Shown in pieces: positions 19,159 to 33,371 of a stretch of 53,880 nucleotides of DNA. The translations under genes and the position numbers were made by a program. The DNA lies in the IMG/VR virus record IMGVR_UViG_3300037467_001092, positions 1 to 53,880 of that record; one strand, given 5' to 3'. Position 1 is the first letter of the stretch. The number at the start of each line of letters is the position of its first letter. The DNA comes from a virus (lineage: Duplodnaviria; Caudoviricetes). Below the pieces are notes generated by a model. It did no database searches. It saw only the letters and a list, made by a program, of their open reading frames with translations, and was not told the origin of the DNA.

Positions 19159-19267
19159 GCCGCCCCCGCTACATGCCCTTCCAGGGCGAGCGCGTGAGCG
19201 TCGAAGAGGGCCGCCGATTTCGCGCGGGAGGTGCTGAACGCCTTCCCCGGAACGGTCGTCACCATTC

Positions 19268-20545: not shown

Positions 20546-20679
20546 CCCAACCCCAATCCAAGGATGGACGGAGAGAAGATATGGCCGTGATCCCGGGGCC
20601 TACCGAACAACCTGTGGGCCCTCCGGTGCAGTTGCCCGTCGGGTCACCAAACTCCAACGCTGACCTGAAAGGATCGACT

Positions 20680-21627
20680 ATGTGGAACGAGATCAAGCGC
20701 GTTGACGACGACGCCGAGCGGGTCACGAAGTTCGTCTTCTCGAACGAAAGTGCTGTCGCCGAGGCTGTTCTCTACCGCTACCCCACCTACGCGGAGCGTA
20801 CGGTCATCTGCATCTCGACGCAGAGCGGCTGTCCGGTCGGCTGCCGGTTCTGCGGCGCTGGCGATGCGTTCGTTCGTTCGCTCTCGGCCGACGAGATCGT
20901 GTCCCAGGCCGACCATTGCCTCCAGACCGCTTACGAGGCTGAAGGCGTTGTGGCCGCCGACATGGGCCGCCTCCAGATCATGTTCATGTCGATGGGCGAG
21001 CCGCTCCTCAACATGAAGGCGCTCGCCCCGGCCATCCGGCGGCTGCACGGCATGTATCCGAACGCGGCGCTGCTGATCTCCACGTCGGCGCCCAAGACGG
21101 ACTACGAGGCCGTCAACGCCCTGTCGGTCGAGGTTCCCACGGTCGGCTTGCAATTTTCCGTCCACGAGTCCACCGACGCCGCCCGCGACCTCCTTGTGCC
21201 GTTCAAGGCGAAGCTGACGCTGGAGGAGATCGCCCGGGCTGGGGAGCGATGGTTCGCCGAGACTGGCCGCCACCCGTTCTTCAACTACTGCGCCCACGAC
21301 GGAAATAGCTCCTACGAAGACGCCCGCCGCCTTCTGGTGCTGTTCGACCCGCGCGTCTGGTGCGCCACCGTCTCGGTCGTCTGTGAGCGTAACGAGGGCT
21401 TGCCAGCGACGAACGATCATCAGCGGAGCCTCGCGATCGACTTCGGCAACGCCCTTGCTGGCTGTGGCTATGACGTACGCGTCTTCGATCCGGCTGGCCA
21501 AGACACCATCGGCGGCGGCTGCGGCCAACTCTGGTTCGTGCAGGACTGGCTGAGGACGCGACCCGACCTTGCCAGGCCCTCCATCGGCGCTGGGAAGCCA
21601 GTCGTTCACGCTCCCGCCGCCGCATAA
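20680..21627 (+). CDS. RlmN/Cfr-type radical SAM methyltransferase
   Basis: TVICISTQSGCPVGCRFC (CxxxCxxC plus upstream Cys), MSMGEPLLN, SVH, GGCGQL. SD GAAAGGA before ATG 20680; the frame is open back to 20542. Confidence 0.88.
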   Translation: MWNEIKRVDDDAERVTKFVFSNESAVAEAVLYRYPTYAERTVICISTQSGCPVGCRFCGAGDAFVRSLSADEIVSQADHCLQTAYEAEGVVAADMGRLQIMFMSMGEPLLNMKALAPAIRRLHGMYPNAALLISTSAPKTDYEAVNALSVEVPTVGLQFSVHESTDAARDLLVPFKAKLTLEEIARAGERWFAETGRHPFFNYCAHDGNSSYEDARRLLVLFDPRVWCATVSVVCERNEGLPATNDHQRSLAIDFGNALAGCGYDVRVFDPAGQDTIGGGCGQLWFVQDWLRTRPDLARPSIGAGKPVVHAPAAA

Positions 21628-21694
21628 TTCAGACCGCTGCCACGCCCGAAGTTGCGGCGAAGCCGTCGCCCCAATCGCAGAACTAGAGGCCATC

Positions 21695-21943
21695 ATGACC
21701 CCTACCAAGAAGGAAGCTGCTGGGCTGGAGCAAGCGCGCAACCCCGGAAACCTCGATGACATCCGCATCTGCGCGGAGGAGATCGTCGAGTGCTCAGGCC
21801 TGACCCGAGGTCAGTTCGAGCTTGAGGGACCGGCAGTTCTGATGGCGCGGCTCGATACGGTTTCGACGCTGGCGAAGGACATCCTGCAAACCCTGGCTGC
21901 TCACCAAGAGCGCCACGCCGAGGCTCACGCCAATGACCGCTGA
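21695..21943 (+). CDS. Hypothetical protein
   Basis: MTPTKKEAAG, SD GAGG. Confidence 0.6.
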   Translation: MTPTKKEAAGLEQARNPGNLDDIRICAEEIVECSGLTRGQFELEGPAVLMARLDTVSTLAKDILQTLAAHQERHAEAHANDR

Positions 21944-22568
21944 CCTGCAAAGCTGCCCGTTCTGCGGGAACCGCGCTGACGTCGGAAACTACATCGTCGA
22001 GGCCTGCGCCAAGTGCGTCGGTTGCGGCGCCGCGATCACTCGACGCCACGCGGCTGAATGGGACAGCGGCGTCCCTGCCGCCATCGCCGCATGGAACCAA
22101 CGCCCCCTCCCCGTCTCTGCCCCGGCTGCTGGGGTGGAGGAAGCGGTTGCGTTCCTGAGCGAGGCGCTGAACTTCGCCTACCGGCACGGCCTGCATGAGC
22201 CGGGCTACAATCCACTGACCGCCATGCTCTCCGCCCTTCCTGTGTCTGTGGGTGGGGATGGTTCATCCGTTGCTGGATTGCCTGCGCACGTTGCTACGCA
22301 TGGCTCCGCAACGGCGACGGATACTCAGCACTCCGCTGGATGGGCGCTGCCGGAACCGCCCCAGACCATTACGTTGCACACGCCGATCACGGGCGGCATG
22401 GCGCATGAGGAAGTCGTCGCTCTATTCGACAAGTACGCCGGTTATCGGCCGCCGACGATCCTGCGGGATGAGTTGGTCGCCTTCTATGTCTGGGCTCGCT
22501 ACGGCGAGAAGGTAGCTGCCCTCGCTGCAACTGCTCCCCAGAAGAAGCCGGAAGGGGAAGGGTCGTGA
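21933..22568 (+). CDS. Lar-like restriction alleviation domain fused to further modules
   Basis: LQSCPFCG...CVGCGA...AIAAWNQR. Confidence 0.7.
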   Translation: MTADLQSCPFCGNRADVGNYIVEACAKCVGCGAAITRRHAAEWDSGVPAAIAAWNQRPLPVSAPAAGVEEAVAFLSEALNFAYRHGLHEPGYNPLTAMLSALPVSVGGDGSSVAGLPAHVATHGSATATDTQHSAGWALPEPPQTITLHTPITGGMAHEEVVALFDKYAGYRPPTILRDELVAFYVWARYGEKVAALAATAPQKKPEGEGS

Positions 22569-22900
22569 GCCCCGACGAGATCAGGAGCTACAAGGCCAGT
22601 GGTCGCTCTGGCCGGCACCTCGCCGAGACTGGCGCGGTCGGCTATCGCTACACGGTCGGATACATCACCACTCCGTACGGCGTGGTTGGCATCTACATGG
22701 AGCGAAACCACACCTCGGCCGTGATCGTGCTTGGCGGTCGCGAGCACCGAGGCTTCTGGCGCCGGGATTTCACCGAACGCGGTCTCGTCGCCGCCTGCAG
22801 GCGCTTCGCCGCCCGGATGGCCGATAGCAAGGATGGCACCACTGAACGCCCGGGGACAGATCCCGGGAGGCCCCAAACCCCTTCCTCCGAGGGCGAGTAG
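22565..22900 (+). CDS. Hypothetical protein ending in a boundary element
   Basis: GTGA-coupled; the C-terminus KDGTTERPG is encoded by the repeat. Confidence 0.6.
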   Translation: MSPDEIRSYKASGRSGRHLAETGAVGYRYTVGYITTPYGVVGIYMERNHTSAVIVLGGREHRGFWRRDFTERGLVAACRRFAARMADSKDGTTERPGTDPGRPQTPSSEGE

Positions 22901-22901
22901 C

Positions 22902-23135
22902 ATGGGCGAGAAGATCACGAAGGCCATGCGGGCCTGCCTCAACTATTATCTGACCAACGAGCTCAACCCCGTGAGGGTACAGCGACCGCCATATGCCTGG
23001 ACGACCCGCCAGTTGAACTCAGCGCTGGACCGAAGTTGGCTGTGTGTCGGCCCTGGCGGTTGGCACATTCTCACCCCCGTCGGTCGTGCGGCCCTGTCGG
23101 AGGGCGACAACCTCAACTCAGGAAAGGAAGACTGA
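22902..23135 (+). CDS. Hypothetical winged-helix-like protein
   Basis: MGEKITKAM...HILTPVGRAAL. Confidence 0.55.
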   Translation: MGEKITKAMRACLNYYLTNELNPVRVQRPPYAWTTRQLNSALDRSWLCVGPGGWHILTPVGRAALSEGDNLNSGKED

Positions 23136-23238
23136 TGTACCGCTATCTGATGAATCTGGTGGACCCCACCGTGACCGTTCACGGGGGTCGCACCGTCGCC
23201 AAGATCTCATTCTGGCGCCGCCTGCTAGGTCGGGGCGC

Positions 23239-24003
23239 ATGACCACCCACCTGAACGGGGCGGACTACGCCGAACTGCGACGGATCGCGGAGACCCTCAA
23301 AGGCTATCCGCTTATTGTATCGGACCCGAACAGCCTGACGGCCCTACGCTCGATCATGAGCTCGGCGTCCGCGGGTCTCCTCTCGATGCTGGAAGCCCTG
23401 GAAGCCGCCGAGCGGGAGCGGGACGAAGCGCGAGCCGCGCTGGCCTACGTGCTCGATCACGCCGTTTACAGCGACAGCTACGGCGTACACGGCAGCGACT
23501 TCACGTGCTGCCACTTCTGCCAAGGCGGCGGTGCTCCCGGCGTAGCCTTGGAGCACGATGCAGACTGTCCAGTCGGACGGTACCCCCGCGCCGTGGCGGA
23601 TTGGTTCGAGGAAATGGAGGCGGAGCGAGCCGACCGCGAAGCCGCCGAGTCCAAGGTCTCCGATCTAGAGCGGGAGCTGTCCAAGTTCATGGACCTGTAT
23701 GACGCCGCTCGTGGTGACGTCGTAACGCTCGAAGTCCGCCAGGAAGCCGCCGAGCGACAGCTTGGAGAGGTGCGGGGAGCAGTGTTCGGTATCGCCGACG
23801 ACTACATGACGAGCGAGAACCATCATCCCGGCTACGTGCTCATCCCCGTGGAAAAGTTCGAGCGGCTTCGAAGCTTTGGCGAGGCCCCGGCCCTGTTGTC
23901 TTCCCTTCCCTGTGGAGGAGATGAGGGTTCATCCGTTGCCGAGAGCGGAAGTACGGCTTCGCCGAAATCCGATGGGCTCTGCAAGTCGGAAGGTGAAGAC
24001 TGA
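23239..24003 (+). CDS. Ead/Ea22-like coiled-coil accessory protein with Cys/His motif
   Basis: LLSMLEALEAAERERDEAR and CHFC...EHDADCP. Confidence 0.55.
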   Translation: MTTHLNGADYAELRRIAETLKGYPLIVSDPNSLTALRSIMSSASAGLLSMLEALEAAERERDEARAALAYVLDHAVYSDSYGVHGSDFTCCHFCQGGGAPGVALEHDADCPVGRYPRAVADWFEEMEAERADREAAESKVSDLERELSKFMDLYDAARGDVVTLEVRQEAAERQLGEVRGAVFGIADDYMTSENHHPGYVLIPVEKFERLRSFGEAPALLSSLPCGGDEGSSVAESGSTASPKSDGLCKSEGED

Positions 24004-24788
24004 TGCCCGGCGTGAACAACTGGCGCGTGGGCCTCCCGTGGCCAAAAGAACACCTCGACTTGGAGGACATCGGCGACGTCGAGTACCTCTATGAGGACGA
24101 TGACGGCGCGACGAAGAACAGCTTCGATCAAGGACGCGCCTTGGCCGCGATGCTCCTGGCCGAAGCCATCTTTCTGAACTCCAACTGGTGGTTCAGCTCC
24201 TGGCCTGACGAAGCCAAGAAAACAGTCGCTCTCTGCGTAAACACGAATGACGTGTTCGCCTGGGGGTGTGCTGACGCCGAGAACATCACCTACGATCAGA
24301 TTGAAGAGGTCTATCGATACTGGGCGAAAGACCCGCAGTGGGGCACCGCAATCTGGGCCATCATAAACGCCAAAGAACTTCCGCAGCGCCCAGTGGCGGA
24401 CTCCATCCGGAAGGCCGGCATCTGGGACCTTGACGCGTTAACTGCCGAGCATGGACTTCGTGCCAACCACTACGACGGAGTGAGCCGCGTTCTGGCGCTC
24501 CATAAGTACGAGGCGTTTTGCGCCTGGGCCGCGAGGACCGGCCGCGAAGTTCTCGAGTTCACGTCTGGTTGGTGGGCTGGCTGGAAAGAGTACACGGCCG
24601 CCAACCCAGGTTGGTACGATGACGCCTGGAAGGCCGAAGACGACCGACGCGCCGATGCGTTCAAGGTTGAGAACGGCTTCTCGGCGCCCTCCAGCGAAGC
24701 TGTGAGCCCGCAGTCCGAGCCGCAGGCGAGTGCAGGCAATCTTCCACCGGATGAACCTTCAAATCCTGATCCTAAGGTGCAGCCGTGA
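24003..24788 (+). CDS. Trp-rich hypothetical protein
   Basis: 261 aa, VNTNDVFAWGCADAE, TGATG-coupled. Confidence 0.7.
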   Translation: MPGVNNWRVGLPWPKEHLDLEDIGDVEYLYEDDDGATKNSFDQGRALAAMLLAEAIFLNSNWWFSSWPDEAKKTVALCVNTNDVFAWGCADAENITYDQIEEVYRYWAKDPQWGTAIWAIINAKELPQRPVADSIRKAGIWDLDALTAEHGLRANHYDGVSRVLALHKYEAFCAWAARTGREVLEFTSGWWAGWKEYTAANPGWYDDAWKAEDDRRADAFKVENGFSAPSSEAVSPQSEPQASAGNLPPDEPSNPDPKVQP

Positions 24789-25135
24789 GCGCCTTCGAAC
24801 TCCGGACGATCAGCGACAAGGAGGCCGCTGACCGGCTGGGCTTCAACGTGCGCGCCCTGCGTCCAATCCTTGACCAGAACGCGCTCTGCCTTCGTCATGG
24901 TCGCCAGCGTCGCCTCACCGAGGCCGACTTCGTTCGCCTGCAAACCCTGCTGAGGCCGGAATGCCCATCAAGCCCTATCTCCGTCCGAATGGGATCTACC
25001 ACCTCCGGGGCACGGTCCAAGGCGTACGTGTCGACGAAAGCGCGCGAACGTCTAGCCGAAGCGAAGCTGAAGCGCTCGCGGCCAAAATGTCGGCGGACAT
25101 CTTCAAGCGGGCTGTCTACGGCGACAAGGCTGTAG
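24785..25135 (+). CDS. Putative excisionase
   Basis: HTH-like ISDKEAADRLGFNVRAL..GRQRRL, overlaps the integrase 5' end. Confidence 0.55.
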   Translation: MSAFELRTISDKEAADRLGFNVRALRPILDQNALCLRHGRQRRLTEADFVRLQTLLRPECPSSPISVRMGSTTSGARSKAYVSTKARERLAEAKLKRSRPKCRRTSSSGLSTATRL

Positions 25136-26016
25136 CGACCTTCGATGAGGCGGTTGTCGTCTATCTCGATGCCGGCGGAGCGCCTGAACACCTAGACGCC
25201 ATCATGGACCGGATCGGGCAACGCAAGCTGTCCGAGATCAACCAGCCCTTGGTGGACAAGCTGGCCCGCGAGCTGAAGCCGGACGCCAGCCCCGCCACTA
25301 GGCTGCGTCAGGTCTACACCCCCATCCTTGCCGTCATGAATGCCGCCTGTGGCGCCGGTCTCTGCGACCCGATCCGGCTGAAGAAGCCGAAGGTCTCGGG
25401 CGGCCGGACGGAGTACCTGACCCCTCAGGAGGCTGAGGACTGGCTAGCCGCCCTCCCCGCACATCTCCGCCGCATCGTGACGTTCTATCTCGGCACCGGT
25501 TGCCGCGCGACGGAAGGCCTCTCGCTGATCTGGAAGGACGTCACCCTGGGGGAGCGCCGGGCGGTCTTCTGGGACACCAAGGAGGACTACGCCCGCGGCG
25601 TGGATCTGGGCAAGCGGGTGCGCAAGGAACTGCCGAAGCGCGCGGACAAGTCCGACATGCTGGTGTTCCTCAACTCGAAGGGCGTGCCATGGCACGGCTA
25701 CGACGCGATCAACCTGATGCTCAAGCGCGTCAGGGCCAGACGGGAGAAGCAGATTGCGGAGGGGGCCAGACTGCCGCCGCTCGCGCCCGCGCATTGCCAC
25801 TTGTTCCGCCACACCTGGGCGACGTGGGCCTATGCCTGCACGCGGGACATGACCTACCTCATGAGCCAGGGCGGATGGAAAACCGCGTCCATGGTCATGC
25901 GCTACGCACACGTCGGGACGGACGATCTCGCACGTGCGGTTCTGGAGGCGGGTTGGGAGTTCGGCGGCAAGGAACTGCCGCTCCCTCCGGCCGGCAAGCG
26001 CAAGGCTTCTCGATGA
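24961..26016 (+). CDS. int: Tyrosine integrase
   Basis: TGCRATE, HLFRHTWA, GGWK, MRYAH catalytic residues, adjacent att core. Confidence 0.95.
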   Translation: MPIKPYLRPNGIYHLRGTVQGVRVDESARTSSRSEAEALAAKMSADIFKRAVYGDKAVATFDEAVVVYLDAGGAPEHLDAIMDRIGQRKLSEINQPLVDKLARELKPDASPATRLRQVYTPILAVMNAACGAGLCDPIRLKKPKVSGGRTEYLTPQEAEDWLAALPAHLRRIVTFYLGTGCRATEGLSLIWKDVTLGERRAVFWDTKEDYARGVDLGKRVRKELPKRADKSDMLVFLNSKGVPWHGYDAINLMLKRVRARREKQIAEGARLPPLAPAHCHLFRHTWATWAYACTRDMTYLMSQGGWKTASMVMRYAHVGTDDLARAVLEAGWEFGGKELPLPPAGKRKASR

Positions 26017-26101
26017 GGGGCCTTGGGAGGAATTTGGGAACACGATCCTGGGAGGTCGGATTTCCCGTGCAAGATCAGTTGCTTGCAGAAACGCACGCCC
26101 A

Positions 26102-26148
26102 CCTTGGTAAGGCTGAGGTCGGCAGTTCAATCCTGCCCGGCGGCACCA
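26102..26148 (+). other. att core: 3' half of tRNA-Thr(GGT)
   Basis: CCTTGGTAAGGCTGAGGTCGGCAGTTCAATCCTGCCCGGCGGCACCA has anticodon loop, T arm and CCA but no D arm. TGGGA(G/A) arm-type repeats lie at 26023-26054 and 26256-26272. Confidence 0.9.
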
Positions 26149-26180
26149 CTATTTTCCCTTGTAGTTCAAGGGACTTAGAC

Positions 26181-26213
26181 AACCCGGAGGCCAGAAATGG
26201 TTCTCCGGGTTTT
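26181..26213 (+). terminator. Intrinsic terminator supplied downstream of the tRNA core
   Basis: AACCCGGAG-GCCAGAAATGGTT-CTCCGGGTTTT. Confidence 0.8.
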
Positions 26214-26227
26214 GTCGTTTCGGGCGT

Positions 26228-26242
26228 GAACGCGTCGAGAAC
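26228..26242. promoter_or_regulatory. Alphaproteobacterial LexA-type box in the att arm
   Basis: GAAC-GCGTCGA-GAAC. Confidence 0.45.
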
Positions 26243-26279
26243 ATCAGCCTCGGCTTGGGAGATTCGTGGGAGGCCGCTT

Positions 26280-26462
26280 TCAGCCTCCGCGTCTCTTCAG
26301 CTCATTTTCCACGGCCTCGCGGATGAAGGCCGCCATGCGGTTCTGGCCGGCGACCGCTTCAATGCGGCGCATAATGTCACCGGTCAGTCGCACTGCCGTT
26401 GTGATGGTCTTCTCGCCGGCCTTGAGTGGAGGTCGCCCCATTCTCGCGGCTGTATCCGTCAT
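26280..26462 (-). CDS. Ribbon-helix-helix regulator (Arc/CopG-like)
   Basis: MGRPPL..TTAVRLTGDIMRRIEAVAGQNRMAAFIREAVENEL. Confidence 0.75.
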   Translation of the reverse strand: MTDTAARMGRPPLKAGEKTITTAVRLTGDIMRRIEAVAGQNRMAAFIREAVENELKRRGG

Positions 26463-26492
26463 CGGAAAATCACTCAAGGGCTCCACCGTTTC

Positions 26493-26548
26493 CGTTATCG
26501 CTTATTGACACCAGTAAGCGTCATCGCTTATATAACCGTCATCGCTTA
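26493..26548 (+). promoter_or_regulatory. Strong sigma70 promoter with three 12-bp direct-repeat operators
   Basis: TTGACA 26505, TATATA 26529, CGT(C/T)ATCGCTTA at 26493, 26519 and 26537, SD AAGGAGG. Confidence 0.8.
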
Positions 26549-26561
26549 AGGAGGCAAGCAG

Positions 26562-26971: not shown

Positions 26972-26972
26972 C

Positions 26973-27200: not shown

Positions 27201-27235
27201 TCTCTCCCTCTCCCCCGAACGCTCTGGAGTGAAGA

Positions 27236-27628
27236 ATGAAGGGAATCAATGATATGGCCTCAAACGCCAGTCGTGCGGCGCATGGGGACCCTGCCCATGC
27301 TGCCCCCAAGGCCCAGCCCTCTGCGGCGCACACGCCGGGGCCTTGGGTAAAAGGTCGATACGGCGAGCTCCAGGGCTCCGATGGCGCCACGGTCTGCGTC
27401 AAAGGCTTGGGCGTATCCATTTCGCTCAGCGGCGATCCTTACCCAGTAGCCGAGGCCAACGCCCGCCTGATCGCCGCCGCTCCTGACATGTACGAGGCGC
27501 TGAAGGAAGCGGAGCGAATCCTAGACTACTTCGCGAACGGCCGAACCTCGTTCGTCGGTGGAGGAACACCGCGGAACGCCCACGAGATGGTCCGCGCCGC
27601 CATCGCCCGCGCCGAGAACCCGTCGTGA
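27236..27628 (+). CDS. Phage protein with HTPGPW...ANARLIAAAP motif
   Basis: Common phage accessory motif; the N-terminus is encoded by a repeat shared with 28154. Confidence 0.7.
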   Translation: MKGINDMASNASRAAHGDPAHAAPKAQPSAAHTPGPWVKGRYGELQGSDGATVCVKGLGVSISLSGDPYPVAEANARLIAAAPDMYEALKEAERILDYFANGRTSFVGGGTPRNAHEMVRAAIARAENPS

Positions 27629-27671
27629 ACCCCCTAGTGAGTTCTGAGATCGAGATAGGGATTGAAAAGCT

Positions 27672-27881
27672 ATGAACAACGACCACTGCTTCATCTGCGC
27701 CGCGCCTCTAGTCGAAGGCCAGATGGTGCTGCCGGATATGTCCGGCGGTCTCGGACACCGAGTCTGCTTCGGCTACGACCGGGAAGGCTTCGTCAAGGAC
27801 ATCGAAACCGGAGAACCGCTCGGGCCGCATGACGCCATCCCCACCGGGTTCCCCTATGCTCCGGAGATCGAAACGCCATGA
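27672..27881 (+). CDS. Small Zn-binding protein
   Basis: CFIC...HRVC. Confidence 0.55.
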   Translation: MNNDHCFICAAPLVEGQMVLPDMSGGLGHRVCFGYDREGFVKDIETGEPLGPHDAIPTGFPYAPEIETP

Positions 27882-27901
27882 GTGAGACAGGAACCTGAGC
27901 G

Positions 27902-28063
27902 ATGAGCGCCGACTTCGTCTTTCAGGCCTTCGTCATTGCTGTCGTGGGCGTCCCCTTCTTCAAGATCGGCTTAGACGTGCTGTTGCGGCGCGACCCGCCC
28001 GTGCGACCCCTACAGCCGCATCGCATCCGCCGACGCTCCAAGACCCCTGAGACAGGGACCTGA
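27902..28063 (+). CDS. Small membrane peptide (53 aa)
   Basis: MSADFVFQAFVIAVVGVPFFKIGLDVLL, flanked by a 16-bp direct repeat. Confidence 0.45.
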   Translation: MSADFVFQAFVIAVVGVPFFKIGLDVLLRRDPPVRPLQPHRIRRRSKTPETGT

Positions 28064-28153
28064 CAGCCGTGAGCCATGTTCGCAAACTCGGCCGCCGTAC
28101 CCACAAACCTACCCCTCCCCGATCCGCCCACCCCCTCCCTAGGAGGAGAATAA

Positions 28154-28405
28154 ATGGAAGATATGGCATCAAGAGCCAGTCGTGCGCGGACAGGGCCCCT
28201 GCCCCGTCCTGACACAGACGCCGAGCCTTCTGCGGCCTGTTCAAACTGCCCGATGGAGCTCGGGTGCGGCTCGTTCGAGGTCTGTCGGATCATGTCAATG
28301 ACCAACGACGAGATCATCGCATCGACGCCAGATGCCGAGCGGGTTGCGGAGGAGATGCGGGCGATCCTGCTGGACGCCATCGCCAAGGCGGAGGGACGCG
28401 CGTGA
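28154..28405 (+). CDS. Hypothetical protein
   Basis: SD AGGAGG, CxxC motif. Confidence 0.6.
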   Translation: MEDMASRASRARTGPLPRPDTDAEPSAACSNCPMELGCGSFEVCRIMSMTNDEIIASTPDAERVAEEMRAILLDAIAKAEGRA

Positions 28406-28584
28406 AACTGCGACTATATTGCGCCTACTGTGGTCAGTCTTGGTACGAGGGACAGAGGCCGCTCTGCAACCACACCGAAGACGTGGTGCCTTACGAGGCG
28501 ATCCACTCTCAGGATGGCACCACTGAACGCCAGCCAGAGCCCCGGGAGGAATCCCAAACATCCTGCGATCTGAAGGGAAGATGA
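28402..28584 (+). CDS. Small CxxC protein ending in a boundary element
   Basis: GTGA-coupled, CAYC, C-terminal QDGTTERQ. Confidence 0.55.
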   Translation: MKLRLYCAYCGQSWYEGQRPLCNHTEDVVPYEAIHSQDGTTERQPEPREESQTSCDLKGR

Positions 28585-28880
28585 TGTTCGATATGGTGGA
28601 GCGAGTAGCGAGGGCGATCTACGAGGCCGCCCGCGCGCCGCAGGAGGGCATTCCGTGGGAAATGGCGGAACAAGAAGAGGCCATCCGAGAGGCCCGCGCC
28701 GCTATCGACACCACCAAGATCGCATTGAAAGAACACCTCGCGACATTGGAAGAAGTGTTCGGGCCGGCCAAGAGCGCGGAGCATGTGACGGAGCGTATCT
28801 GGCACGCGTTCTACACCGGACCGCAATTCTATGACGCCGCCCTGGCCGAGGGAACCGAGGCCCCACAGGTTGACGGCTAG
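28581..28880 (+). CDS. Hypothetical protein
   Basis: MVERVARAIY...ARAAI motif; the stop lies in a boundary element. Confidence 0.65.
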   Translation: MMFDMVERVARAIYEAARAPQEGIPWEMAEQEEAIREARAAIDTTKIALKEHLATLEEVFGPAKSAEHVTERIWHAFYTGPQFYDAALAEGTEAPQVDG

Positions 28881-28896
28881 GCCCCGGGAACGAACC

Positions 28897-29100
28897 ATGA
28901 CCGAAAGAACCTACCTCCCAGGCCTAGAAGACCAACCTCATGATGTGGTCCTAACCCTACCTGCCAGGGAGTGGGCGGCTCTGGTGATGCTGAGGGACCA
29001 GACGTTCAGTGGCCGGCCGCTCGAGCTCGTGGCCCGAAAGCTGGTTCAGGACGGGCTCATCCAGTGTGGAATTTTAGCGCCCCAGAAGGGAAGACAATGA
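28897..29100 (+). CDS. Hypothetical protein
   Basis: ATG directly after the element GGGAACGAACC. Confidence 0.55.
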   Translation: MTERTYLPGLEDQPHDVVLTLPAREWAALVMLRDQTFSGRPLELVARKLVQDGLIQCGILAPQKGRQ

Positions 29101-29384
29101 GCGACCTCCAGAAATTCGCCATCGTCTTTGCGACCGCTGCCATGGGGTGGTTCACCACTGGCGCCATCGCCGCGTCATGGACGGCAAGCGAACTGCTGGG
29201 CGCCGGCGGTTGGGCAGACTTGGCAATAGTCTCGATTGTGGGCGGATCGGCTGGCTGCCTGGCGTGGTCTCTTCTTTTGATCGCTCTGGCGTTCATCCGA
29301 GGCAAGGCGGCGGGGCGCAAGTGGCTGCAGCGGCTAAGCGCCCTCACGGGTCACTTCGCCCCTCCCGCAAGAGGGACGTCGTAG
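29097..29384 (+). CDS. Two-TM membrane protein
   Basis: MSDLQKFAIVFATAAMGW..., two hydrophobic segments. Confidence 0.6.
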   Translation: MSDLQKFAIVFATAAMGWFTTGAIAASWTASELLGAGGWADLAIVSIVGGSAGCLAWSLLLIALAFIRGKAAGRKWLQRLSALTGHFAPPARGTS

Positions 29385-29410
29385 GCCGCTGCAGCACGCT
29401 CCAGATAGCA

Positions 29411-29441
29411 GAAAGGCCGGCCCCTGTGAAGGAACCGGCCT
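29411..29441 (-). terminator. Terminator between convergent operons
   Basis: AGGCCGG-loop-CCGGCCT followed by TTC on the minus strand. Confidence 0.55.
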
Positions 29442-29484
29442 GAGGCGGTCTAGCCGCTGGGGATCATGCGTAAGCCCGCCGGCG

Positions 29485-29733
29485 TCAGAACAGGCCGAAG
29501 CGTTTTCGCTTCTTCGGCTGAGCGCTGTCCACGATAGCCACCACAGCGGCTCTCCGCTTGTCGCACTCCTGCAAGGCCGCCTCCTGATCCTTGGCGAAGG
29601 ACGCCAGATCCCCGACCGTACGCATAGGGCTTACCGGTCCTACGCACTTGGCCCTGAGGCTATCGGAGATCGTCAGCGTCGGAGCACGCGGGGTCACCGT
29701 CCCGCAGGCTTGCAAGCCCAGCGCAGAGAGCAT
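29485..29733 (-). CDS. o-spanin (Rz1-like lipoprotein)
   Basis: Lipobox LQAC, overlaps the 3' end of the i-spanin. Confidence 0.7.
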   Translation of the reverse strand: MLSALGLQACGTVTPRAPTLTISDSLRAKCVGPVSPMRTVGDLASFAKDQEAALQECDKRRAAVVAIVDSAQPKKRKRFGLF

Positions 29734-30007
29734 CACGAAGGGCAGGGTCAAGCGGCTGGTCAGCAGTCGGGGCTTGGCGGATCGAACGCTCTGCATTGGC
29801 GGCCTTCTCTCGAATGACGATAGTCTGAGTGTGGTAGCGGTCGAGCACCTTCGCCGAGGCCGTATCGACCTTGCTCTGAGCTTCGGCGTTTGACGCCCTT
29901 GTCTCGGCGGCCTTTCGACGACCGAAAGGGTCGAAGGACCAGGCCAGCCACCCCATCACCAGAATGACGGCCAGGGCGGCGACGGCGTAGAAGGCTAGCC
30001 GTTTCAT
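29660..30007 (-). CDS. i-spanin (Rz-like)
   Basis: N-terminal TM plus helical periplasmic part, coupled to the endolysin stop. Confidence 0.7.
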   Translation of the reverse strand: MKRLAFYAVAALAVILVMGWLAWSFDPFGRRKAAETRASNAEAQSKVDTASAKVLDRYHTQTIVIREKAANAERSIRQAPTADQPLDPALRDALCAGLASLRDGDPACSDADDLR

Positions 30008-30750
30008 CAGTGTTTCGCCCCCCGCGCGTCCAGCCAACGGAACACCATGATCGCGATGCCCGCGGCGACGATCACCCCGGCGATGATCCCGCCCAGCTTG
30101 GCGAGGTATTCGGAGTAGTAGGCCTGGGGCGCGACAAGCGCCTGAACCTGCCGCGCGCCTTCGGCCACACCTGAGACCGCGACGGTCGCCCCAGCCCACA
30201 TGGTTTTCGACTGCACCATGGGCTTGACGGTCGCCTCGGGCGCGGGGGGCGTGGGGATTATCCTAGTCACTGAGGATGGGACGTGAGCCTCTTCCGGGCT
30301 GTCCGACAGCCAGAGGTTCACTTCGGCCTGTCGGCGACGCTCTAGGCCGCGCAGCACCTTCCCACCGGCGCGGTTGAAGCGCTTGATCTGGTCGGGAACC
30401 GCGGCGAACTCTTTCCGGCGCAGGAAGCCCCAGATCTTCCATTCCGGCGATGAGCCCCCGGTGCCCAGGTTGAACACGAAGCTCACCATGGCGCCGTACT
30501 GGCCCTCGCCCAGCGCGGCCACGACCTCGGCCCCGATCTTGCGCTCAAGGCGCTTGGCGGCGATCTGGAGGTCTTCTTCGAACCACATGTCCGACTGGCG
30601 TTGGGTGATCCTCGTGCCGATCTTGCCGCCGGGGACCACATGCCCCCTGCCCCCGGTCACGATGCCCACGCCATCGTCGTAGAGGGTCAGGACGTCTTTC
30701 TCATAGTCGGCAATGAGCGCACGGGCTCGCGCCGGGACTGGCCGGGTCAT
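30007..30750 (-). CDS. GH24 lysozyme endolysin with C-terminal hydrophobic helices
   Basis: E-x8-D-x5-T triad (YEKDVLTLYDDGVGIVT), SFVFNLG, GLERRRQAE. Confidence 0.9.
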   Translation of the reverse strand: MTRPVPARARALIADYEKDVLTLYDDGVGIVTGGRGHVVPGGKIGTRITQRQSDMWFEEDLQIAAKRLERKIGAEVVAALGEGQYGAMVSFVFNLGTGGSSPEWKIWGFLRRKEFAAVPDQIKRFNRAGGKVLRGLERRRQAEVNLWLSDSPEEAHVPSSVTRIIPTPPAPEATVKPMVQSKTMWAGATVAVSGVAEGARQVQALVAPQAYYSEYLAKLGGIIAGVIVAAGIAIMVFRWLDARGAKH

Positions 30751-30888
30751 GGAAACCTCGCGATGTGAGGGGCTATGCGCTTCAGCGCATAAGGTTGGTT
30801 TATGCCGTTTGGGGCATACTCTGGCGGCGTGTTGGGCCGGTGATGTACAGGTTTCTGTACAGGTCTAGGCGGCTGATCGAACGTCGCC

Positions 30889-30923
30889 GTTCTCTTGTTG
30901 TTCGCGCTGGTTGGTGGTATATT
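30889..30923 (+). promoter_or_regulatory. Promoter overlapped by a LexA-type box
   Basis: GTTC-TCTTGTT-GTTC (30889-30903) over -35 TTGTTG, extended -10 TGgTATATT 6 nt before ATG 30930. Confidence 0.6.
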
Positions 30924-30929
30924 CCTGCG

Positions 30930-31601
30930 ATGAAGCAGGTTGATCACACAGGCGCGCGCTTCGGTTCGTGGACAGCCCTGTCGCTCGCCAGGACGGACGG
31001 GCATCGTACGTGGTGGCTTGTTCGGTGCGACTGTGGCCTAGAAAAAACCTTGCGCGCAGATAGCCTTACAACCGGTCGCTCACGTCGCTGCGTGAGGTGC
31101 CAAGCTGCTGAGAGCAGCGTCAACAATCGGACGCACGGAAAGTCTCATGGGCCAACGTGGCGGTCCTGGGCCTCGATGCGCGAACGATGCTCTAGACCAG
31201 CCACGGCGGGTTATATGGACTATGGCGGCCGAGGCATCTCGGTCTGTGAGCGATGGCAATCCTTTGAGTGCTTCTACGCGGATATGGGCGAGCGCCCTGC
31301 TGGGACTACGCTTGACCGCATAGACCCGGACGGCAACTACGAGCCAGATAACTGCCGCTGGGCAACGCCCAAGCAGCAGAACCGCAATCGGCGCAGGACG
31401 GTGTTCCTGTCCGCGAACGGGCGAAGGCAGAGCCTAAGCGCGTGGGCCGAGGAGTTGGGCTTCTCTCACATCACGCTTTACAAGCGATATGTCGCAGGCT
31501 GGCCGGACGATAAGATCGTCAACACGCCGAAGCTTCCCCCGCACTGCCCTAAGCCGCGCGCACGTCAGCTCCGTCCCCCGAGTAGCGAGAGCGAACACTA
31601 A
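30930..31601 (+). CDS. HNH homing-endonuclease-like protein, antisense in the lysis cassette
   Basis: GARFGSW, CDCG, YGGRGISVCERW, TLDRIDPDGNYEPDNCRWAT. Confidence 0.85.
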   Translation: MKQVDHTGARFGSWTALSLARTDGHRTWWLVRCDCGLEKTLRADSLTTGRSRRCVRCQAAESSVNNRTHGKSHGPTWRSWASMRERCSRPATAGYMDYGGRGISVCERWQSFECFYADMGERPAGTTLDRIDPDGNYEPDNCRWATPKQQNRNRRRTVFLSANGRRQSLSAWAEELGFSHITLYKRYVAGWPDDKIVNTPKLPPHCPKPRARQLRPPSSESEH

Positions 31602-32661
31602 GCATCGACTTGAACTCAATGTCGGTGATGAGTCCACCTTGGACGGTCATGGGCACGACTCCCCACCACCATCCCGTCGGCGCCCCATGCTGGATGTAGT
31701 GCTCGATCTCCCCCCACGGCAGCGCGCACCCGACCTCAACCATGGATATCACATCGAGCGGGCCGATCTTCGCCGCATCATGAAGCTGCTTGCGATGCGT
31801 GTGACCGCCTACAACGGGCACGGTGCTCTTGTTCGCCGCACGCTGCGGCCCGGTCTCACCGCCAAACGCCCGCCCGGCCCCGTTGGTCGCATGATGGGCG
31901 AACCCGACTTGCTCGATGTAGTGCAGCTCGCCATACGGTCTGACGCGCCAGCCGAACTGCGCGAAGGTCTCATCACGCGCCAGCGTGAACGTGCCCACGC
32001 TTTCCGGATGACTGTTCTCCCATCGCTCCAGTCGGTGCTCGTGATTCCCCATGAGGAAATCCAGCTTGGGGCGGTAGTCTTCCGCCATGCCCCTCCGGAA
32101 AGCCTGATGGGAGGCCGTGAGGTTGCCAAGGTCGTCCTTGAAGCCGGGCTTGAACCTTGCAGCCATGCTGTCCGGCTTGTCATGGCTGGAGGCGCAATCG
32201 AACGTCCCCCAATCACCGATCTGGATAATGCGGTCGAAGCGTTGCTCCGATGCAAAGCGGGCGATCCAGGTCAGGACGTCCAGACGGTGCTCGTGCCTCG
32301 GGTCTTGGTGGAGATCCCCGATTACGAGAATCCGCTGTGAGCGGCCCGAGGGCTGCATAAAGATCGGGTCCGGCGGCGGAGCCGGGTGGAGCACCACGCG
32401 AGGCGTGGGCATCTGGTACCGCGCCGCTCGATACAGGCCCCAGTCCGGCTCGAACCCCGTTCCGCTAAGGGATCTAGCAGCGCTGTCGAAGGCGTTGGGA
32501 CTGTGGAACTCACCTTCCTTGACGGCCTCTTGAGCCGCCATGGTGATGGCGCCGAAGCCGGGGCCGTGGAGACCTGGGGGCCGGTGGCCTTCGCGGAGTT
32601 TCTGCTCGATGCGATGCTTCACCGATAGCTTCTGGTCGTCAGTCCGAGGCGGTGTTGGCAA
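31549..32661 (-). CDS. Calcineurin-like metallophosphoesterase
   Basis: GDLH, GDWG.FD, GNHE, GHTH motifs. Confidence 0.85.
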   Translation of the reverse strand: MPTPPRTDDQKLSVKHRIEQKLREGHRPPGLHGPGFGAITMAAQEAVKEGEFHSPNAFDSAARSLSGTGFEPDWGLYRAARYQMPTPRVVLHPAPPPDPIFMQPSGRSQRILVIGDLHQDPRHEHRLDVLTWIARFASEQRFDRIIQIGDWGTFDCASSHDKPDSMAARFKPGFKDDLGNLTASHQAFRRGMAEDYRPKLDFLMGNHEHRLERWENSHPESVGTFTLARDETFAQFGWRVRPYGELHYIEQVGFAHHATNGAGRAFGGETGPQRAANKSTVPVVGGHTHRKQLHDAAKIGPLDVISMVEVGCALPWGEIEHYIQHGAPTGWWWGVVPMTVQGGLITDIEFKSMLSVRSRYSGDGADVRAA

Positions 32662-32664
32662 GTG

Positions 32665-32844
32665 TCAGCCTTCCTCATCGGCGAGACCATCGAAGGTCCC
32701 CGGTGCTGGTTTCCGCCTCACGCCGCGCTTGGGCAGCGGGTGGAGCTGGTTTTCGGGATCGGCGTTCCACTGGTACCGGACGAGCCGGTAAGCGTGGTGG
32801 CAGGCGGGCCAGAAGACCCGCCAGTTGGTTTCTTCAAGGATCAT
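32665..32844 (-). CDS. Hypothetical protein preceded by a boundary element
   Basis: MILEETNWRVFW; the SD GGGAGG is supplied by the repeat. Confidence 0.5.
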   Translation of the reverse strand: MILEETNWRVFWPACHHAYRLVRYQWNADPENQLHPLPKRGVRRKPAPGTFDGLADEEG

Positions 32845-33002
32845 GACGGTTCCTCCCGGGACCACGCCCCGGGCGTTCATTGGTGTCTTGAATTTCTGCC
32901 GCGCGCCTGTAGACTCGAAATGTCCGAAAGGATCGCGACCCGGCGCGAGTGGGGGTGGCTCCGGTAACAGCGCCCCCGCCTCTCACTTGAGAGGAACATC
33001 CG

Positions 33003-33242
33003 ATGGGTTCAAACTCGGTCATCATGGACGCCCAGCGTCGCTCACTACTAGCAACGGTCGGTCTCTTCGTTATTGGCGGCTACGTGATCGGTTTCGCCGT
33101 CGCGATTTGGGTTCTGCAACCCGAAAGACCTTGGTTGCTGCTATTCTCCGCGGGTGTCGCGGTCATCTGTCTGGCCGCCGCAAGAATGTGGCTGGCGCTG
33201 AGTCGCGCCGAGGGCACCGAGGCCGCAACCACGCCTCGCTAG
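33003..33242 (+). CDS. Two-TM moron protein
   Basis: Hydrophobic, SD GAGG, stop inside a boundary element. Confidence 0.6.
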   Translation: MGSNSVIMDAQRRSLLATVGLFVIGGYVIGFAVAIWVLQPERPWLLLFSAGVAVICLAAARMWLALSRAEGTEAATTPR

Positions 33243-33257
33243 GCCCTGGGATGAACC

Positions 33258-33371
33258 CTAAAACGCCACCGTCACTCGAAGCAGCTCTGCTCGGATGACT
33301 ACTGAGCGAGGGGCCGAGGCGCACCCCGCAACATAGATCCCGGCCAGGAGAACAAGCGCCAGGCGGGTCAT
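33258..33371 (-). CDS. Small lipoprotein (37 aa)
   Basis: MTRLALVLLAGIYVAGC lipobox, ATGA-coupled. Confidence 0.45.
   Translation of the reverse strand: MTRLALVLLAGIYVAGCASAPRSVVIRAELLRVTVAF

What the first reader, a model, noticed from the sequence alone, without database searches (positions are those of the whole stretch)
20561..33258. Dispersed boundary elements at accessory gene junctions: candidate phage gene-cassette/domain-shuffling system
Seen: at least 11 related 50-90 nt GC-rich elements, many with internal inverted repeats, in four sub-families (20561, 22260, 22830, 23926, 24684, 27251, 28160, 28511, 28845, 32848, 33207). Most end in a related motif (CCCGGGAGG, CCTGGGATGAACC, CCCGGGAACGAACC, CGGATGAACC). 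I noticed them only in accessory regions, in both orientations, on both sides of att, always at the start, end or inter-domain linker of unrelated ORFs. They are read through as low-complexity peptides or supply stop codons and SD sequences. Inference: they act as recombination joints, analogous in role to integron attC sites or lambdoid boundary sequences, but they lack the attC RYYYAAC/GTTRRRY ends. The enzyme is unknown; the local ERF, NinB, HNH and Int are candidates.
Basis: partly seen in the sequence, partly recalled or inferred. Interest (0 to 1): 0.85.

Follow-up and report, generated by a model that had tools for sequence, protein, structure and literature searches.

The report
Shared junction linkers for phage gene-swapping
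Short GC-rich sequences at the ends of small accessory genes of this soil phage are almost the only DNA it shares with a related phage whose genes in between are different, which makes it a dense example of the known idea that phages swap genes at conserved boundary sequences.

Summary
The elements are real. Their pairs are the strongest self-similarities in the window outside its duplicated ends: 3 hits of 37.2 bits or more, against 0.27 expected. All 11 overlap or abut short islands of 77-100% identity shared with one collinear relative, G001, a 50-kb IMG/VR phage. Between the islands the genes are unrelated: 26 of 34 window ORFs have no G001 homolog, and 4 of the 8 hits cover only termini or linkers. 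Of 22 short islands, 13 contain a gene boundary (3.9 expected). Element a occurs 7 times in 4 phage records, beside 6 different upstream and 7 different downstream genes, and is read in three frames or untranslated. It has no significant fold, no Rfam match, no attC cores, and is not a host repeat. Most likely these are boundary or linker sequences. They carry stop, Shine-Dalgarno and start signals or in-frame linkers, and they give enough homology for general recombination, possibly by the phage's ERF and NinB, to swap cassettes and protein modules. This is a new variant of a known kind, not an integron-like system. The evidence rests on one collinear relative.

The parts
22830..22884 (+). 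Element a1. It forms the C-terminal tail of orf111 (22565-22900) and holds two CCCGGG sites and GGAGG. Its 3' part and the next gene's start (22862-22924) are 95% identical to G001.
28511..28563 (+). Element a2. It forms the C-terminal tail of orf60 (28402-28584). Its first 21 nt are identical to a1.
32839..32894 (-). Element a3, on the minus strand in a divergent intergenic region. Its GGAGG lies about 7 nt before the ATG of orf59 (32665-32844). Its 3' half is identical (23 of 23) to the G001 copy at 10749-10771.
22228..22273 (+). Element b1, an in-frame linker inside the Lar-fusion ORF (21933-22568). It is 46 of 46 identical to G001, while the protein segments on both sides are unrelated.
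23906..23993 (+). Element b2 plus the C-terminal tail of orf254. It shares the 14-mer with b1, and 23939-23993 is 96% identical to G001.
27204..27327 (+). Element c1: the leader, the start and the first ~30 codons of orf130. The PHROG 1273 domain starts only at residue 30. It is 82% identical to G001, where it heads a different protein.
28045..28236 (+). Element c2 with its upstream leader: the junction of orf53 and orf83 and the N-terminal codons of orf83. 28045-28179 is 90% identical to G001.
28841..28896 (+). Element d1: the end of orf99, then TAG, a CCCGGG site and the ATG of orf67. It is 91% identical to G001 (exact run of 35).
33203..33258 (+). Element d2: the end of orf79 and TAG. The G001 identity island (33260-33286, 27 of 27) starts right after it.
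20542..20637 (+). Composite leader that starts at an ATGA stop/start overlap and contains an inverted d element (d3, 20581-20637, minus strand). Its first 26 codons are shared with G001 (97% nt) but are fused to a radical-SAM body here and to an unrelated 282-aa protein in G001.
24744..24786 (+). Junction of orf261 and the xis-like ORF. 24753-24786 is 97% identical to G001, where a d-type element precedes it.
21694..21727 (+). Single-copy junction island: the start of orf82, 34 of 34 identical to G001, where it heads a different, longer ORF.
22105..22147 (+). In-frame linker island inside the Lar-fusion ORF, just after the Lar domain (95% to G001). In protein P0002 the same Lar domain is joined at about this point to DUF4326.
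22523..22570 (+). Junction island between the Lar-fusion ORF and orf111 (92% to G001).
23081..23283 (+). Two junction islands, 23081-23130 and 23235-23283, at the orf77/orf35/orf254 junctions (88% and 94% to G001).
27611..27652 (+). Junction island at the end of orf130 (95% to G001).
28553..28586 (+). Junction island between orf60 and orf99 (97%). In G001 a 134-codon gene lies between element a and this sequence.
30747..30874 (.). Island over the endolysin start and the divergent intergenic region (97% to G001). The G001 coding sequence beside it has no detectable homology to the window's endolysin.
18415..19158 (+). ERF-family single-strand annealing protein (PF04404, E 1.2e-7, 32.2 bits against a cut-off of 25). 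Candidate recombinase by inference only.
19268..19732 (+). NinB (PF05772, E 1.7e-16), 99% identical in protein to G001's. Candidate recombination mediator by inference only.
24961..26148 (+). Tyrosine integrase (24961-26016) and an att core (26102-26148) that looks like the 3' part of a tRNA. The core is 47 of 47 identical to a Phenylobacterium prophage end. Context only; I found no link to the elements.

Best explanation
The elements are conserved boundary (linker) sequences of a pool of soil alphaproteobacterial temperate phages. Each is 30-80 nt long and sits where one small accessory gene or protein module ends and the next begins. It encodes a low-complexity tail or in-frame linker. It often also supplies a stop codon (TAG before a CCCGGG site), a Shine-Dalgarno sequence (GGAGG) and a start (ATGA overlaps, ATGACC).

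Different phages carry the same junction sequence beside different genes. General homologous recombination within these short identities, during co-infection or with resident prophages, can therefore replace, insert or delete a cassette while leaving a working joint. The phage's own ERF annealing protein with NinB is the most plausible catalyst; host RecA is the alternative. Most junctions are single-copy and slot-specific, which keeps gene order. The four repeated families (a-d) are junction sequences that have spread to several slots, and so would also allow slot changes, deletions and inversions.

Shown: the repeats, their conservation between otherwise non-homologous collinear regions, their concentration at gene and module boundaries, and their independence of flanking genes and of reading frame. 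Inferred: that recombination happens in them, and which enzyme does it.
For: (1) Window and G001 are collinear from NinB to 33.6 kb but share only islands. There are 24 in 19.7-33.7 kb, of which 22 are 27-135 nt at 77-100% identity.
(2) Of 34 window ORFs, 26 have no tblastn hit in G001 at E<=1e-3. Four hits are confined to termini or linkers: the rSAM leader (26 aa), the orf77 tail (17 aa), the Lar-fusion ORF and orf254. Only NinB, HNH (31%), orf67 and orf80 match along their length.
(3) 13 of 22 short islands contain a gene boundary against 3.9 expected (0 of 20,000 permutations reach this). 15 of 22 lie within 15 nt against 5.8 expected. The intragenic ones are linkers between unrelated protein segments.
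(5) Element a has 7 copies in 4 records: window x3, G001 x2, L009 and L026 (with L025). These have 6 different upstream and 7 different downstream protein bodies, and no pair among them is similar apart from island-encoded termini. L009 shares no other DNA with the window, and L026 only weak 70-75% stretches in structural genes.
(6) Element a is read as ..DGTTE.. in 4 copies and as ..PLNAS.. in 2, and lies upstream of the start in 1. Element d is read in 2 frames, untranslated or inverted.
(7) The two halves of element a occur in all four combinations. The G001 copy has the window-a2 left half (20 of 20) and the window-a3 right half (23 of 23).
(8) 19 of 24 islands hold an exact run of 23 nt or more. 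The minimal pairing segment quoted for Red-beta is 23-27 bp, and an Erf protein recombined diverged substrates as well as Red (PMC3945230, passages read).
(9) ERF and NinB are encoded next to the region.
(10) Indels against G001 lie exactly at junction motifs. Orf126 sits between two ATGA overlaps. A 134-codon gene in G001 lies between element a and the next junction island. A small gene in G001 follows the CCCGGG site of d1.
(11) A third architecture exists: protein P0002 joins the same Lar domain (69% identity) through a similar linker to DUF4326, which is a separate gene in G001.
(12) Weak population hints come from Logan contigs of 4 soil or rhizosphere runs. 36-83% of laid contigs run on into unlike sequence. 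One contig joins 22926 to 23076, the two islands that bracket the orf77 body. One joins 27272 to 22282-22320 to 27593 (side 39). One joins c1 to c2 in register (side only 21). These are single contigs.
Against: Only one collinear relative could be found. NinB and orf80 searches of viral, genome and metagenome collections returned only G001 or nothing, so the breakpoint statistics rest on a single pair.

My gene calls were made by eye, from ORF lists and stop/start coupling.

No recombination event was observed directly. The contig joints are single contigs with short sides, and the tool warns that such joints can come from other organisms or repeats.

Some indel joints show only 4-nt ATGA microhomology. 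That fits illegitimate recombination as well.

Within the window alone the repeats are only modestly above chance: individual BLAST E-values run from 0.001 to 3.7.

The signals in the elements (stop, SD, start) could by themselves select for some conservation.

Both the window and G001 are metagenome assemblies. The window's ends overlap as two diverged variants, so linkage along the record could be partly chimeric. However, 10 runs hold half or more of the sampled words of 20500-29500 (7 of these hold 98% or more, and those 7 are flagged as possible sources), and the exact Lar-fusion protein is on 9 contigs.

A short conserved island also exists inside orf130 (about 27450-27490), where it matches a protein motif. 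So not every island is a joint.
Confidence: 0.6

Rival explanations
1. Expression signals only. The junction sequences are conserved because they work as translational-coupling or ribosome-binding and stop modules, or as linker peptides, like the start-associated sequences of Cluster K mycobacteriophages. On this reading they play no causal part in recombination.
For: Elements contain GGAGG, TAG, and ATGA or ATGACC starts. In 3 of 7 a copies, GGAGG lies 4-7 nt before an ATG. Stop/start overlaps are common in the region. SAS/ESAS are a precedent for conserved start-linked repeats of unknown function (PMC3203893, passages read).
Against: Signals of 4-9 nt do not explain 27-61 nt exact runs next to non-homologous genes. 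In a1 and a2 no start codon follows GGAGG at a usable distance. Islands also lie in-frame inside ORFs. ESAS travel with their gene family (PMC3203893), whereas element a does not.
Confidence: 0.15
2. Passive scars. Cassettes are exchanged by illegitimate recombination or by other means, and selection keeps only joints at gene ends. The shared short sequences would then be leftover donor flanks or remnants of recent common ancestry, not recombination substrates.
For: The orf126 indel is flanked only by ATGA. Illegitimate recombination is the favoured general model where no boundary sequence is seen (PMC3029335, passages read). A few whole genes are also near-identical (NinB 97%, orf80 96% nt), which shows recent shared ancestry or exchange.
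Against: About 20 tiny remnants would each have to be left between independent replacements, each spanning a boundary (13 of 22 observed against 3.9 expected). This is unlikely unless exchanges end in them. The same element lies at non-orthologous junctions and in otherwise unrelated phages, and element halves are reassorted.
Confidence: 0.12
3. A dedicated site-specific cassette system, integron-like. A recombinase would recognise the elements as folded or sequence-specific sites and excise or insert cassettes as circles.
For: The elements are dispersed and occur in both orientations. They carry a palindromic CCCGGG core. Four of the window's 11 CCCGGG sites fall in collinear islands that cover 6.3% of the window (binomial P 0.004). 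An integrase and HNH genes lie nearby.
Against: There is no fold beyond shuffles and no shared hairpin: only 3 of 7 a copies have the CCCGGGG..CCCGGG stem. attC cores are absent from 11 of 11 elements. There is no Rfam match. The window and G001 carry the same junction sequences but integrases with no detectable similarity. Most islands are unique sequences, not copies of one site.
Confidence: 0.05
4. Artefact or host repeat. The pattern would come from chimeric metagenome assembly at shared k-mers, or the elements would be host REP/MITE repeats picked up by the phage.
For: The window is longer than one genome unit, and its ends are two diverged variants. Logan contigs break at many junction islands.
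Against: Assemblers join reads but do not invent shared sequence, so the shared islands must exist in the samples. The exact 20-mer and the gapped a pattern give 1 hit (an actinobacterium, judged chance) and 0 hits in representatives of 185,579 species. The core GCCCCGGGA..G is not enriched in a Phenylobacterium genome: 53 matches against 65 for the reversed control.
Confidence: 0.05

Closest known systems
Short conserved boundary ('linker') sequences at mosaic joints of lambdoid phages. This is the modular-evolution model, as summarised in PMC3029335 (passages read). The original papers usually cited, Susskind & Botstein 1978 and Clark et al. 2001, are recalled and were not read here.
   Same: Short sequences at gene or module boundaries are conserved between phages whose flanking modules differ. 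They are proposed substrates for general recombination. They lie in the early and accessory (nin-like) region next to NinB and a phage recombinase.
   Different: The host group differs (soil alphaproteobacterial, probably Caulobacterales) and the sequences are GC-rich. They are unusually dense: 22 short islands in 14 kb against one relative. Many are translated as tails, or as in-frame linkers inside ORFs, so protein modules are swapped as well as genes. Some have spread to several slots, in both orientations, and into otherwise unrelated phages. There is a recurrent CCCGGG core.
PeSLs (promoter-early stem-loops) of T4-type phages. See Arbiol et al. 2010, PMC2839356 (abstract and section 16 read), and PMC4122927 (search listing only).
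   Same: Repeated ~100-bp intergenic elements are dispersed among small ORFan genes of plastic regions. Differences between close relatives map to them. They bring expression signals with the cassette. The proposed mechanism is homologous recombination between copies.
   Different: PeSLs are a sigma-70 promoter plus a terminator hairpin. Here no promoter-like or terminator-like site lies in any element and no fold is significant; the signals are translational. Mini-circles were shown for PeSLs and have not been shown here. Most junction sequences here are single-copy.
Start-associated sequences (SAS/ESAS) of Cluster K mycobacteriophages (PMC3203893, passages read).
   Same: Conserved short repeats lie directly upstream of start codons of non-structural genes and include the ribosome-binding region. 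Some have inverted repeats. Their function is unproven.
   Different: ESAS are tied to particular gene families across genomes. Element a here sits beside unrelated genes, also lies at gene ends and inside ORFs, and marks homology breakpoints.
Integron attC sites and gene cassettes.
   Same: Small promoterless genes are separated by recognisable joints, and cassette content differs between relatives.
   Different: There is no attC structure or core, no IntI-type integrase next to an attI, and no single orientation. The sequences are translated. Exchange is most simply explained by homology.

Membership tests
Phage boundary/linker sequences at mosaic joints | A short conserved sequence lies at gene or module boundaries | tested here: met
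   13 of 22 short islands contain a gene boundary (3.9 expected). 15 of 22 lie within 15 nt (5.8 expected). The remainder are linkers inside two ORFs.
Phage boundary/linker sequences at mosaic joints | The modules flanking the conserved sequence are non-homologous or strongly diverged between related phages | tested here: met
   26 of 34 ORFs have no tblastn hit in G001, and 4 of the 8 hits are confined to termini or linkers.
Phage boundary/linker sequences at mosaic joints | The same sequence is shared by several members of an exchanging phage pool | tested here: inconclusive
   All islands are shared by the window and G001, and element a also by L009 and L026/L025. Only one collinear relative was found.
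Phage boundary/linker sequences at mosaic joints | Recombination actually takes place within the sequence | tested here: inconclusive
   Element a halves occur in all four combinations, and single-contig joints exist in metagenomes. No direct event was seen; this needs an experiment.
Integron attC / cassette system | Imperfect inverted repeats fold into a conserved hairpin | tested here: not met
   Fold z-scores run from -1.63 to +0.71 for 10 element sequences. The stem is present in only 3 of 7 a copies.
Integron attC / cassette system | RYYYAAC and GTTRRRY core sites at the ends | tested here: not met
   0 of 11 elements contain either pattern.
Integron attC / cassette system | An IntI-type integrase with attI and Pc next to the array | not tested
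   The only integrase (PF00589) lies next to a tRNA-type att core. No IntI-specific model was run.
PeSL regulatory cassettes (T4-type phages) | A sigma-70-type early promoter plus a terminator stem-loop in each element | tested here: not met
   The consensus scan of 19200-34700 found 1 promoter-like and 5 terminator-like sites. These are fewer than in shuffles, and none lies inside an element.
PeSL regulatory cassettes (T4-type phages) | Dispersed copies flank ORFan genes in plastic regions, and differences between relatives map to them | tested here: met
PeSL regulatory cassettes (T4-type phages) | Mini-circles form by recombination between neighbouring copies | not testable with these tools
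   Only assembled contigs were available, not raw reads.
SAS/ESAS (Cluster K mycobacteriophages) | The repeat lies immediately upstream of start codons and is tied to particular gene families | tested here: not met
   GGAGG lies 4-7 nt before an ATG in 3 of 7 a copies only. The flanking proteins are unrelated.
Host REP/MITE repeats | Many copies in the host chromosome, outside prophages | tested here: not met
   The exact 20-mer gives 1 hit, in an actinobacterium (judged chance), and the gapped pattern gives 0 hits in genome contigs. The core motif gives 53 matches against 65 for the control in a 4.4-Mb Phenylobacterium genome. The true host genome is unknown.

The most novel reading that the evidence does not exclude
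The junction sequences may be more than passive homology. Their CCCGGG palindrome may be a cut site for a nuclease: a host restriction enzyme of that specificity, or one of the phage HNH proteins.

CCCGGG is depleted in these phages overall (window 11 observed against 21 Markov-expected; G001 12 against 19.5). Yet it is concentrated in the junctions: 7 of the window's 11 sites lie in elements, and 4 of 11 lie in collinear islands that cover 6.3% of the sequence.

Double-strand breaks placed exactly at gene and domain joints would then be repaired by ERF/NinB annealing with any co-resident phage that carries the same linker. That would amount to a break-guided cassette- and domain-shuffling system that also builds in-frame fusion proteins.
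Probability: 0.1. Interest if true: 0.8.

Novelty: new variant of a known kind. Interest (0 to 1): 0.45.

Why it matters
How phage genomes become mosaic is an old, unsettled question. One view is homologous exchange at conserved linkers. The other is random illegitimate joining followed by selection. The main argument against the linker model has been that linkers are seen at few joints (PMC3029335, passages read).

In this pair, nearly every junction of a 14-kb accessory region carries such a sequence next to unrelated genes. Some linkers lie in-frame inside proteins, so the same process appears to shuffle protein modules. The Lar domain is one example, with two different partners. An HNH endonuclease bracketed by the termini of a 77-aa protein is another.

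The phage occurs in at least 11 soil and rhizosphere runs. Breakpoints could therefore be counted in natural populations, and the role of an ERF/NinB pair tested if a host is found.

It does not reveal a new kind of machinery. The earlier notes in this scan that I cite (e1-448563, e1-252535, e1-181966, e1-202249, e1-507707, e1-131579) describe similar junction linkers in coliphages.

Tried and rejected
Searches for relatives.
- The phage collection gave no near match, and only distant hits to single conserved genes.
- Integrase relatives (L002-L008) share only int, xis and att DNA with the window.
- NinB and orf80 searches found only G001, or nothing.
- The family c pattern gave 0 viral contigs.

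Weak or chance matches that I do not count.
- The a-like sites in the Phenylobacterium prophage L006 (nhmmer E 2.2 and 5.6).
- The Rhizocola 20-mer hit (nhmmer E 0.0012 over 21 positions only).

RNA and regulatory readings.
- Folding, Rfam and the promoter/terminator scan gave nothing that points to an RNA or transcriptional element.

Link to the att site.
- Element a and the att core share a 9-mer (read). About 0.4 such matches are expected by chance in 54 kb (my own estimate). G001 shares the junctions but not the integrase. I dropped this idea.

Metagenome contigs.
- Parts of the region without cover in some runs say nothing.
- 21 of 64 listed contig-piece ends fall within 10 nt of an island. 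That table shows only 32 of 368 pieces, so I give it no weight.

Earlier notes of this scan.
- There are none for this genome or this sequence.

Corrected slips.
- In one search, three of my ORF coordinates were out of frame. The count was redone with corrected coordinates.
- In one search, one G001 ORF was out of frame. It was redone.

Full report
Context.
The window is a virus record of 53,880 nt. Its first 7.4 kb and last 7.4 kb are two diverged versions of the same structural genes, 69-97% identical at a spacing of about 46.5 kb. The record therefore covers more than one genome unit.

The finding lies in the early and accessory part of the genome. This part runs from an ERF-family annealing protein (18415-19158) through NinB (19268-19732) and HNH (19729-20127) to a string of small ORFs. 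It continues with a tyrosine integrase (24961-26016), an att core that looks like the 3' part of a tRNA (26102-26148; ARAGORN finds no whole tRNA), more small ORFs, a lysis cassette, a second HNH-like gene, a metallophosphoesterase and a methyltransferase. The att core is 47 of 47 identical to the end of a Phenylobacterium prophage whose integrase is 80% identical. The host is therefore probably in the Caulobacterales. Phage genes continue on both sides of att, so 'both sides of att' means one phage genome in its attP form.

The observation.
- 22830-22850 against 28511-28531, 21 of 21, 41.1 bits;
- 27251-27296 against 28160-28204, 83% of 46, 37.2 bits;
- 22837-22870 against 32885-32852, inverted, 85% of 34, 37.2 bits;
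- 20591-20623 against 28889-28857, inverted, 85% of 33, 35.3 bits.

In 30 dinucleotide shuffles of the non-duplicated part, no shuffle reached 41.1 bits. Hits of 37.2 bits or more averaged 0.27 against 3 observed. Within the window alone the signal is real but modest.

The families are:
- a: 22830, 28511, and 32848 inverted;
- b: a 14-mer at 22260 and 23926;
- c: 27251 and 28160;
- d: 28845, 33207, and 20591 inverted.

Site 24684 is not a convincing repeat on its own. The repeated cores are 14-46 nt, shorter than the 50-90 nt stated. They form C-terminal tails (orf111, orf60, orf99, orf79, orf254), N-terminal leaders (orf130, orf83, the radical-SAM ORF), an in-frame linker (the Lar-fusion ORF) or a 5' leader (orf59).

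The decisive comparison.
Pattern scans of public collections with elements a and d led to three further phage records. One of them, G001, is an IMG/VR contig of 50,221 nt estimated 97% complete. It is collinear with the window from NinB onwards.

The two phages share very little DNA. In 19.7-33.7 kb there are 24 matches. Two cover whole small genes (orf67, orf80). The other 22 are islands of 27-135 nt at 77-100% identity. Nineteen of the 24 contain an exact run of at least 23 nt, and the longest is 61 nt.

The genes between the islands are unrelated. Of 34 window ORFs, 26 have no tblastn hit in G001 at E<=1e-3. Four of the 8 hits are confined to termini or linkers. Position-matched protein pairs are similar only over their first 10-32 or last 12-33 residues. 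Pfam confirms different content. Examples are an HNH endonuclease in G001 bracketed by the first 10 and last 17 residues of the window's 77-aa orf77, and DUF4326 where the window has an unrelated 261-aa ORF.

Thirteen of the 22 short islands contain a gene boundary, against 3.9 expected (0 of 20,000 random placements reach this). Fifteen lie within 15 nt, against 5.8 expected. I made the gene calls by eye.

The islands that lie inside ORFs are linkers. The Lar-fusion protein and its G001 counterpart share three short stretches, and the segments between those stretches are unrelated.

Indels also sit at the junction motifs. Orf126 is present only in the window, between two ATGA stop/start overlaps. 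G001 has a 134-codon gene between its element a and the junction sequence that directly follows a2 in the window. G001 also has a small extra gene right after the CCCGGG site of d1.

Independence from neighbours and from reading frame.
Element a has seven copies in four records: three in the window, two in G001, one in L009 and one in L026 (L025 is a short contig with the same copy). L009 shares no other DNA with the window. L026 shares only weak 70-75% similarity in structural genes.

The six upstream and seven downstream protein bodies are mutually unrelated, apart from island-encoded termini. In L026 the element lies in a 31-codon mini-ORF between a DNA methyltransferase gene and another gene. 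Four copies are read in one frame, two in another, and one lies upstream of a start. Element d is read in two frames, untranslated, or inverted inside a leader. Conservation is therefore at the DNA level.

The two halves of element a are found in all four combinations. The G001 copy has the left half of window a2 (20 of 20) and the right half of window a3 (23 of 23). This is what recombination within the element would give.

G001's copy at the a1 position is a hybrid of a and d. The families are related through a common CCCGGG-containing 3' part.

What the elements are not.
- No element folds better than its shuffles.
- There is no Rfam match at E<=1.
- No promoter-like or terminator-like site lies in an element.
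- attC core motifs are absent from 11 of 11 elements.
- The exact 20-mer and the gapped pattern of element a are absent from representative genomes of 185,579 species, except for one actinobacterial hit that I judge to be chance.
- The core motif is not enriched in a Phenylobacterium chromosome: 53 matches against 65 for the reversed control.
- Profiles of a and d find no copies in the structural genes.

Mechanism.
The simplest account is the boundary-sequence model. The junctions are shared by a pool of phages. They are long and exact enough for homologous pairing. The quoted minimal pairing segment is 23-27 bp for Red-beta, and an Erf protein recombined diverged substrates as well as Red (PMC3945230, passages read). 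The phage encodes ERF and NinB. Because the junctions carry stop, SD and start signals or in-frame linkers, every exchange gives a working joint.

Single-copy junctions preserve slot order. The repeated families would allow slot changes, as proposed for the PeSLs of T4-type phages (PMC2839356, abstract and section 16 read).

A third architecture supports module shuffling. Protein P0002 joins the same Lar domain (69% identity) by a similar linker to DUF4326, which is a separate gene in G001.

Population data are only suggestive. In Logan contigs of four soil or rhizosphere runs, 36-83% of laid contigs run on into unlike sequence. Single contigs join 22926 to 23076 (the islands bracketing the orf77 body), join 27272 to 22282-22320 to 27593, and join c1 to c2 in register with a side of only 21 nt.

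That recombination occurs in the elements is inferred, not shown, and so is the enzyme. The rival readings are expression signals only, passive scars of illegitimate recombination, a site-specific system, and an assembly artefact or host repeat. They are weighed in their own sections.

An unexplained feature.
CCCGGG is under-represented in both phages (window 11 observed against 21 Markov-expected; G001 12 against 19.5). Yet 7 of the window's 11 sites lie in elements. Four of 11 lie in collinear islands that make up 6.3% of the window (binomial P 0.004). This may only reflect common descent of families a and d. It also allows the bolder reading that breaks at this palindrome focus recombination on the joints. 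That double-strand cuts stimulate Red recombination in lambda is recalled from memory and was not read here.

Comparison and verdict.
The closest known kinds are lambdoid boundary sequences (PMC3029335, passages read; the original papers are recalled only) and PeSLs. This case differs in several ways: host group, density, translation of the linkers, sub-genic use, spread of some junctions to several slots and to unrelated phages, and the CCCGGG core.

It fails the tested defining features of attC sites, of PeSLs (promoter plus terminator), of SAS/ESAS (tie to a gene family) and of host REP repeats.

I rate it a new variant of a known kind. It is of moderate interest mainly as an unusually clear natural test bed for an old model. 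Two limits apply: there is a single collinear relative, and both records are metagenome assemblies.

The earlier notes in this scan that I cite (e1-448563, e1-252535, e1-181966, e1-202249, e1-507707, e1-131579) describe analogous junction linkers in coliphages. They agree with this reading but are not independent evidence, and I did not test them.

Noticed in passing
window 1-7400 and 46483-53880: The two ends of the record are diverged versions (69-97% identity in blocks) of the same structural genes, about 46.5 kb apart. The record therefore spans more than one genome unit. It is either a tandem of two related phages or a strain-mixed assembly of a circular or permuted genome.
   Followed up: partly
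window 26102-26148; L006 11079-11125: The att core resembles the 3' part of a tRNA, and ARAGORN finds no whole tRNA. It is 47 of 47 identical to the end of a prophage in Phenylobacterium sp. VNQ135 whose integrase is 80% identical. This points to a Caulobacterales host.
   Followed up: partly
whole window and G001: GGGCCC is strongly avoided. The window has 4 sites against 16 Markov-expected, and G001 has 0 against 18. CCCGGG is also depleted. This may be restriction avoidance. The Phenylobacterium locus L006 shows no such depletion (7 against 8.5; 10 against 10.3).
   Followed up: partly
window 26493-26549: Three direct copies of a 12-13-nt sequence lie in the intergenic region between the divergent ribbon-helix-helix-like gene (26280-26486, minus strand) and orf55. 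They look like operator sites.
   Followed up: no
L021 (G001) 2956-3549 against window 22902-23135: A 197-aa HNH endonuclease with an HTH domain in G001 begins with the first 10 residues of the window's 77-aa orf77 and ends with its last 17. It looks like a homing-type gene set between the same termini.
   Followed up: partly
window 27450-27490 (inside orf130, PHROG 1273): A ~40-nt stretch that encodes a conserved motif is covered at much higher depth than its surroundings in four soil or rhizosphere runs. Many different contigs diverge on both sides of it. It is a short conserved island that is a protein motif rather than a gene junction.
   Followed up: no
window 20542-21627: A radical-SAM ORF carries a 46-codon N-terminal extension that starts at an ATGA overlap with the preceding gene. 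The first 26 codons head an unrelated 282-aa protein in G001.
   Followed up: partly
window 26763-26780: A perfect 18-nt palindrome lies inside the ORF 26729-26971. It is among the top self-matches of the window.
   Followed up: no
window 31236-31330 (HNH-like gene 30930-31601): A conserved stretch of this gene matches HNH endonuclease genes of many unrelated phages (Ralstonia, Burkholderia, Synechococcus and others, 69-77% nt). It is deeply covered in the metagenomes.
   Followed up: no
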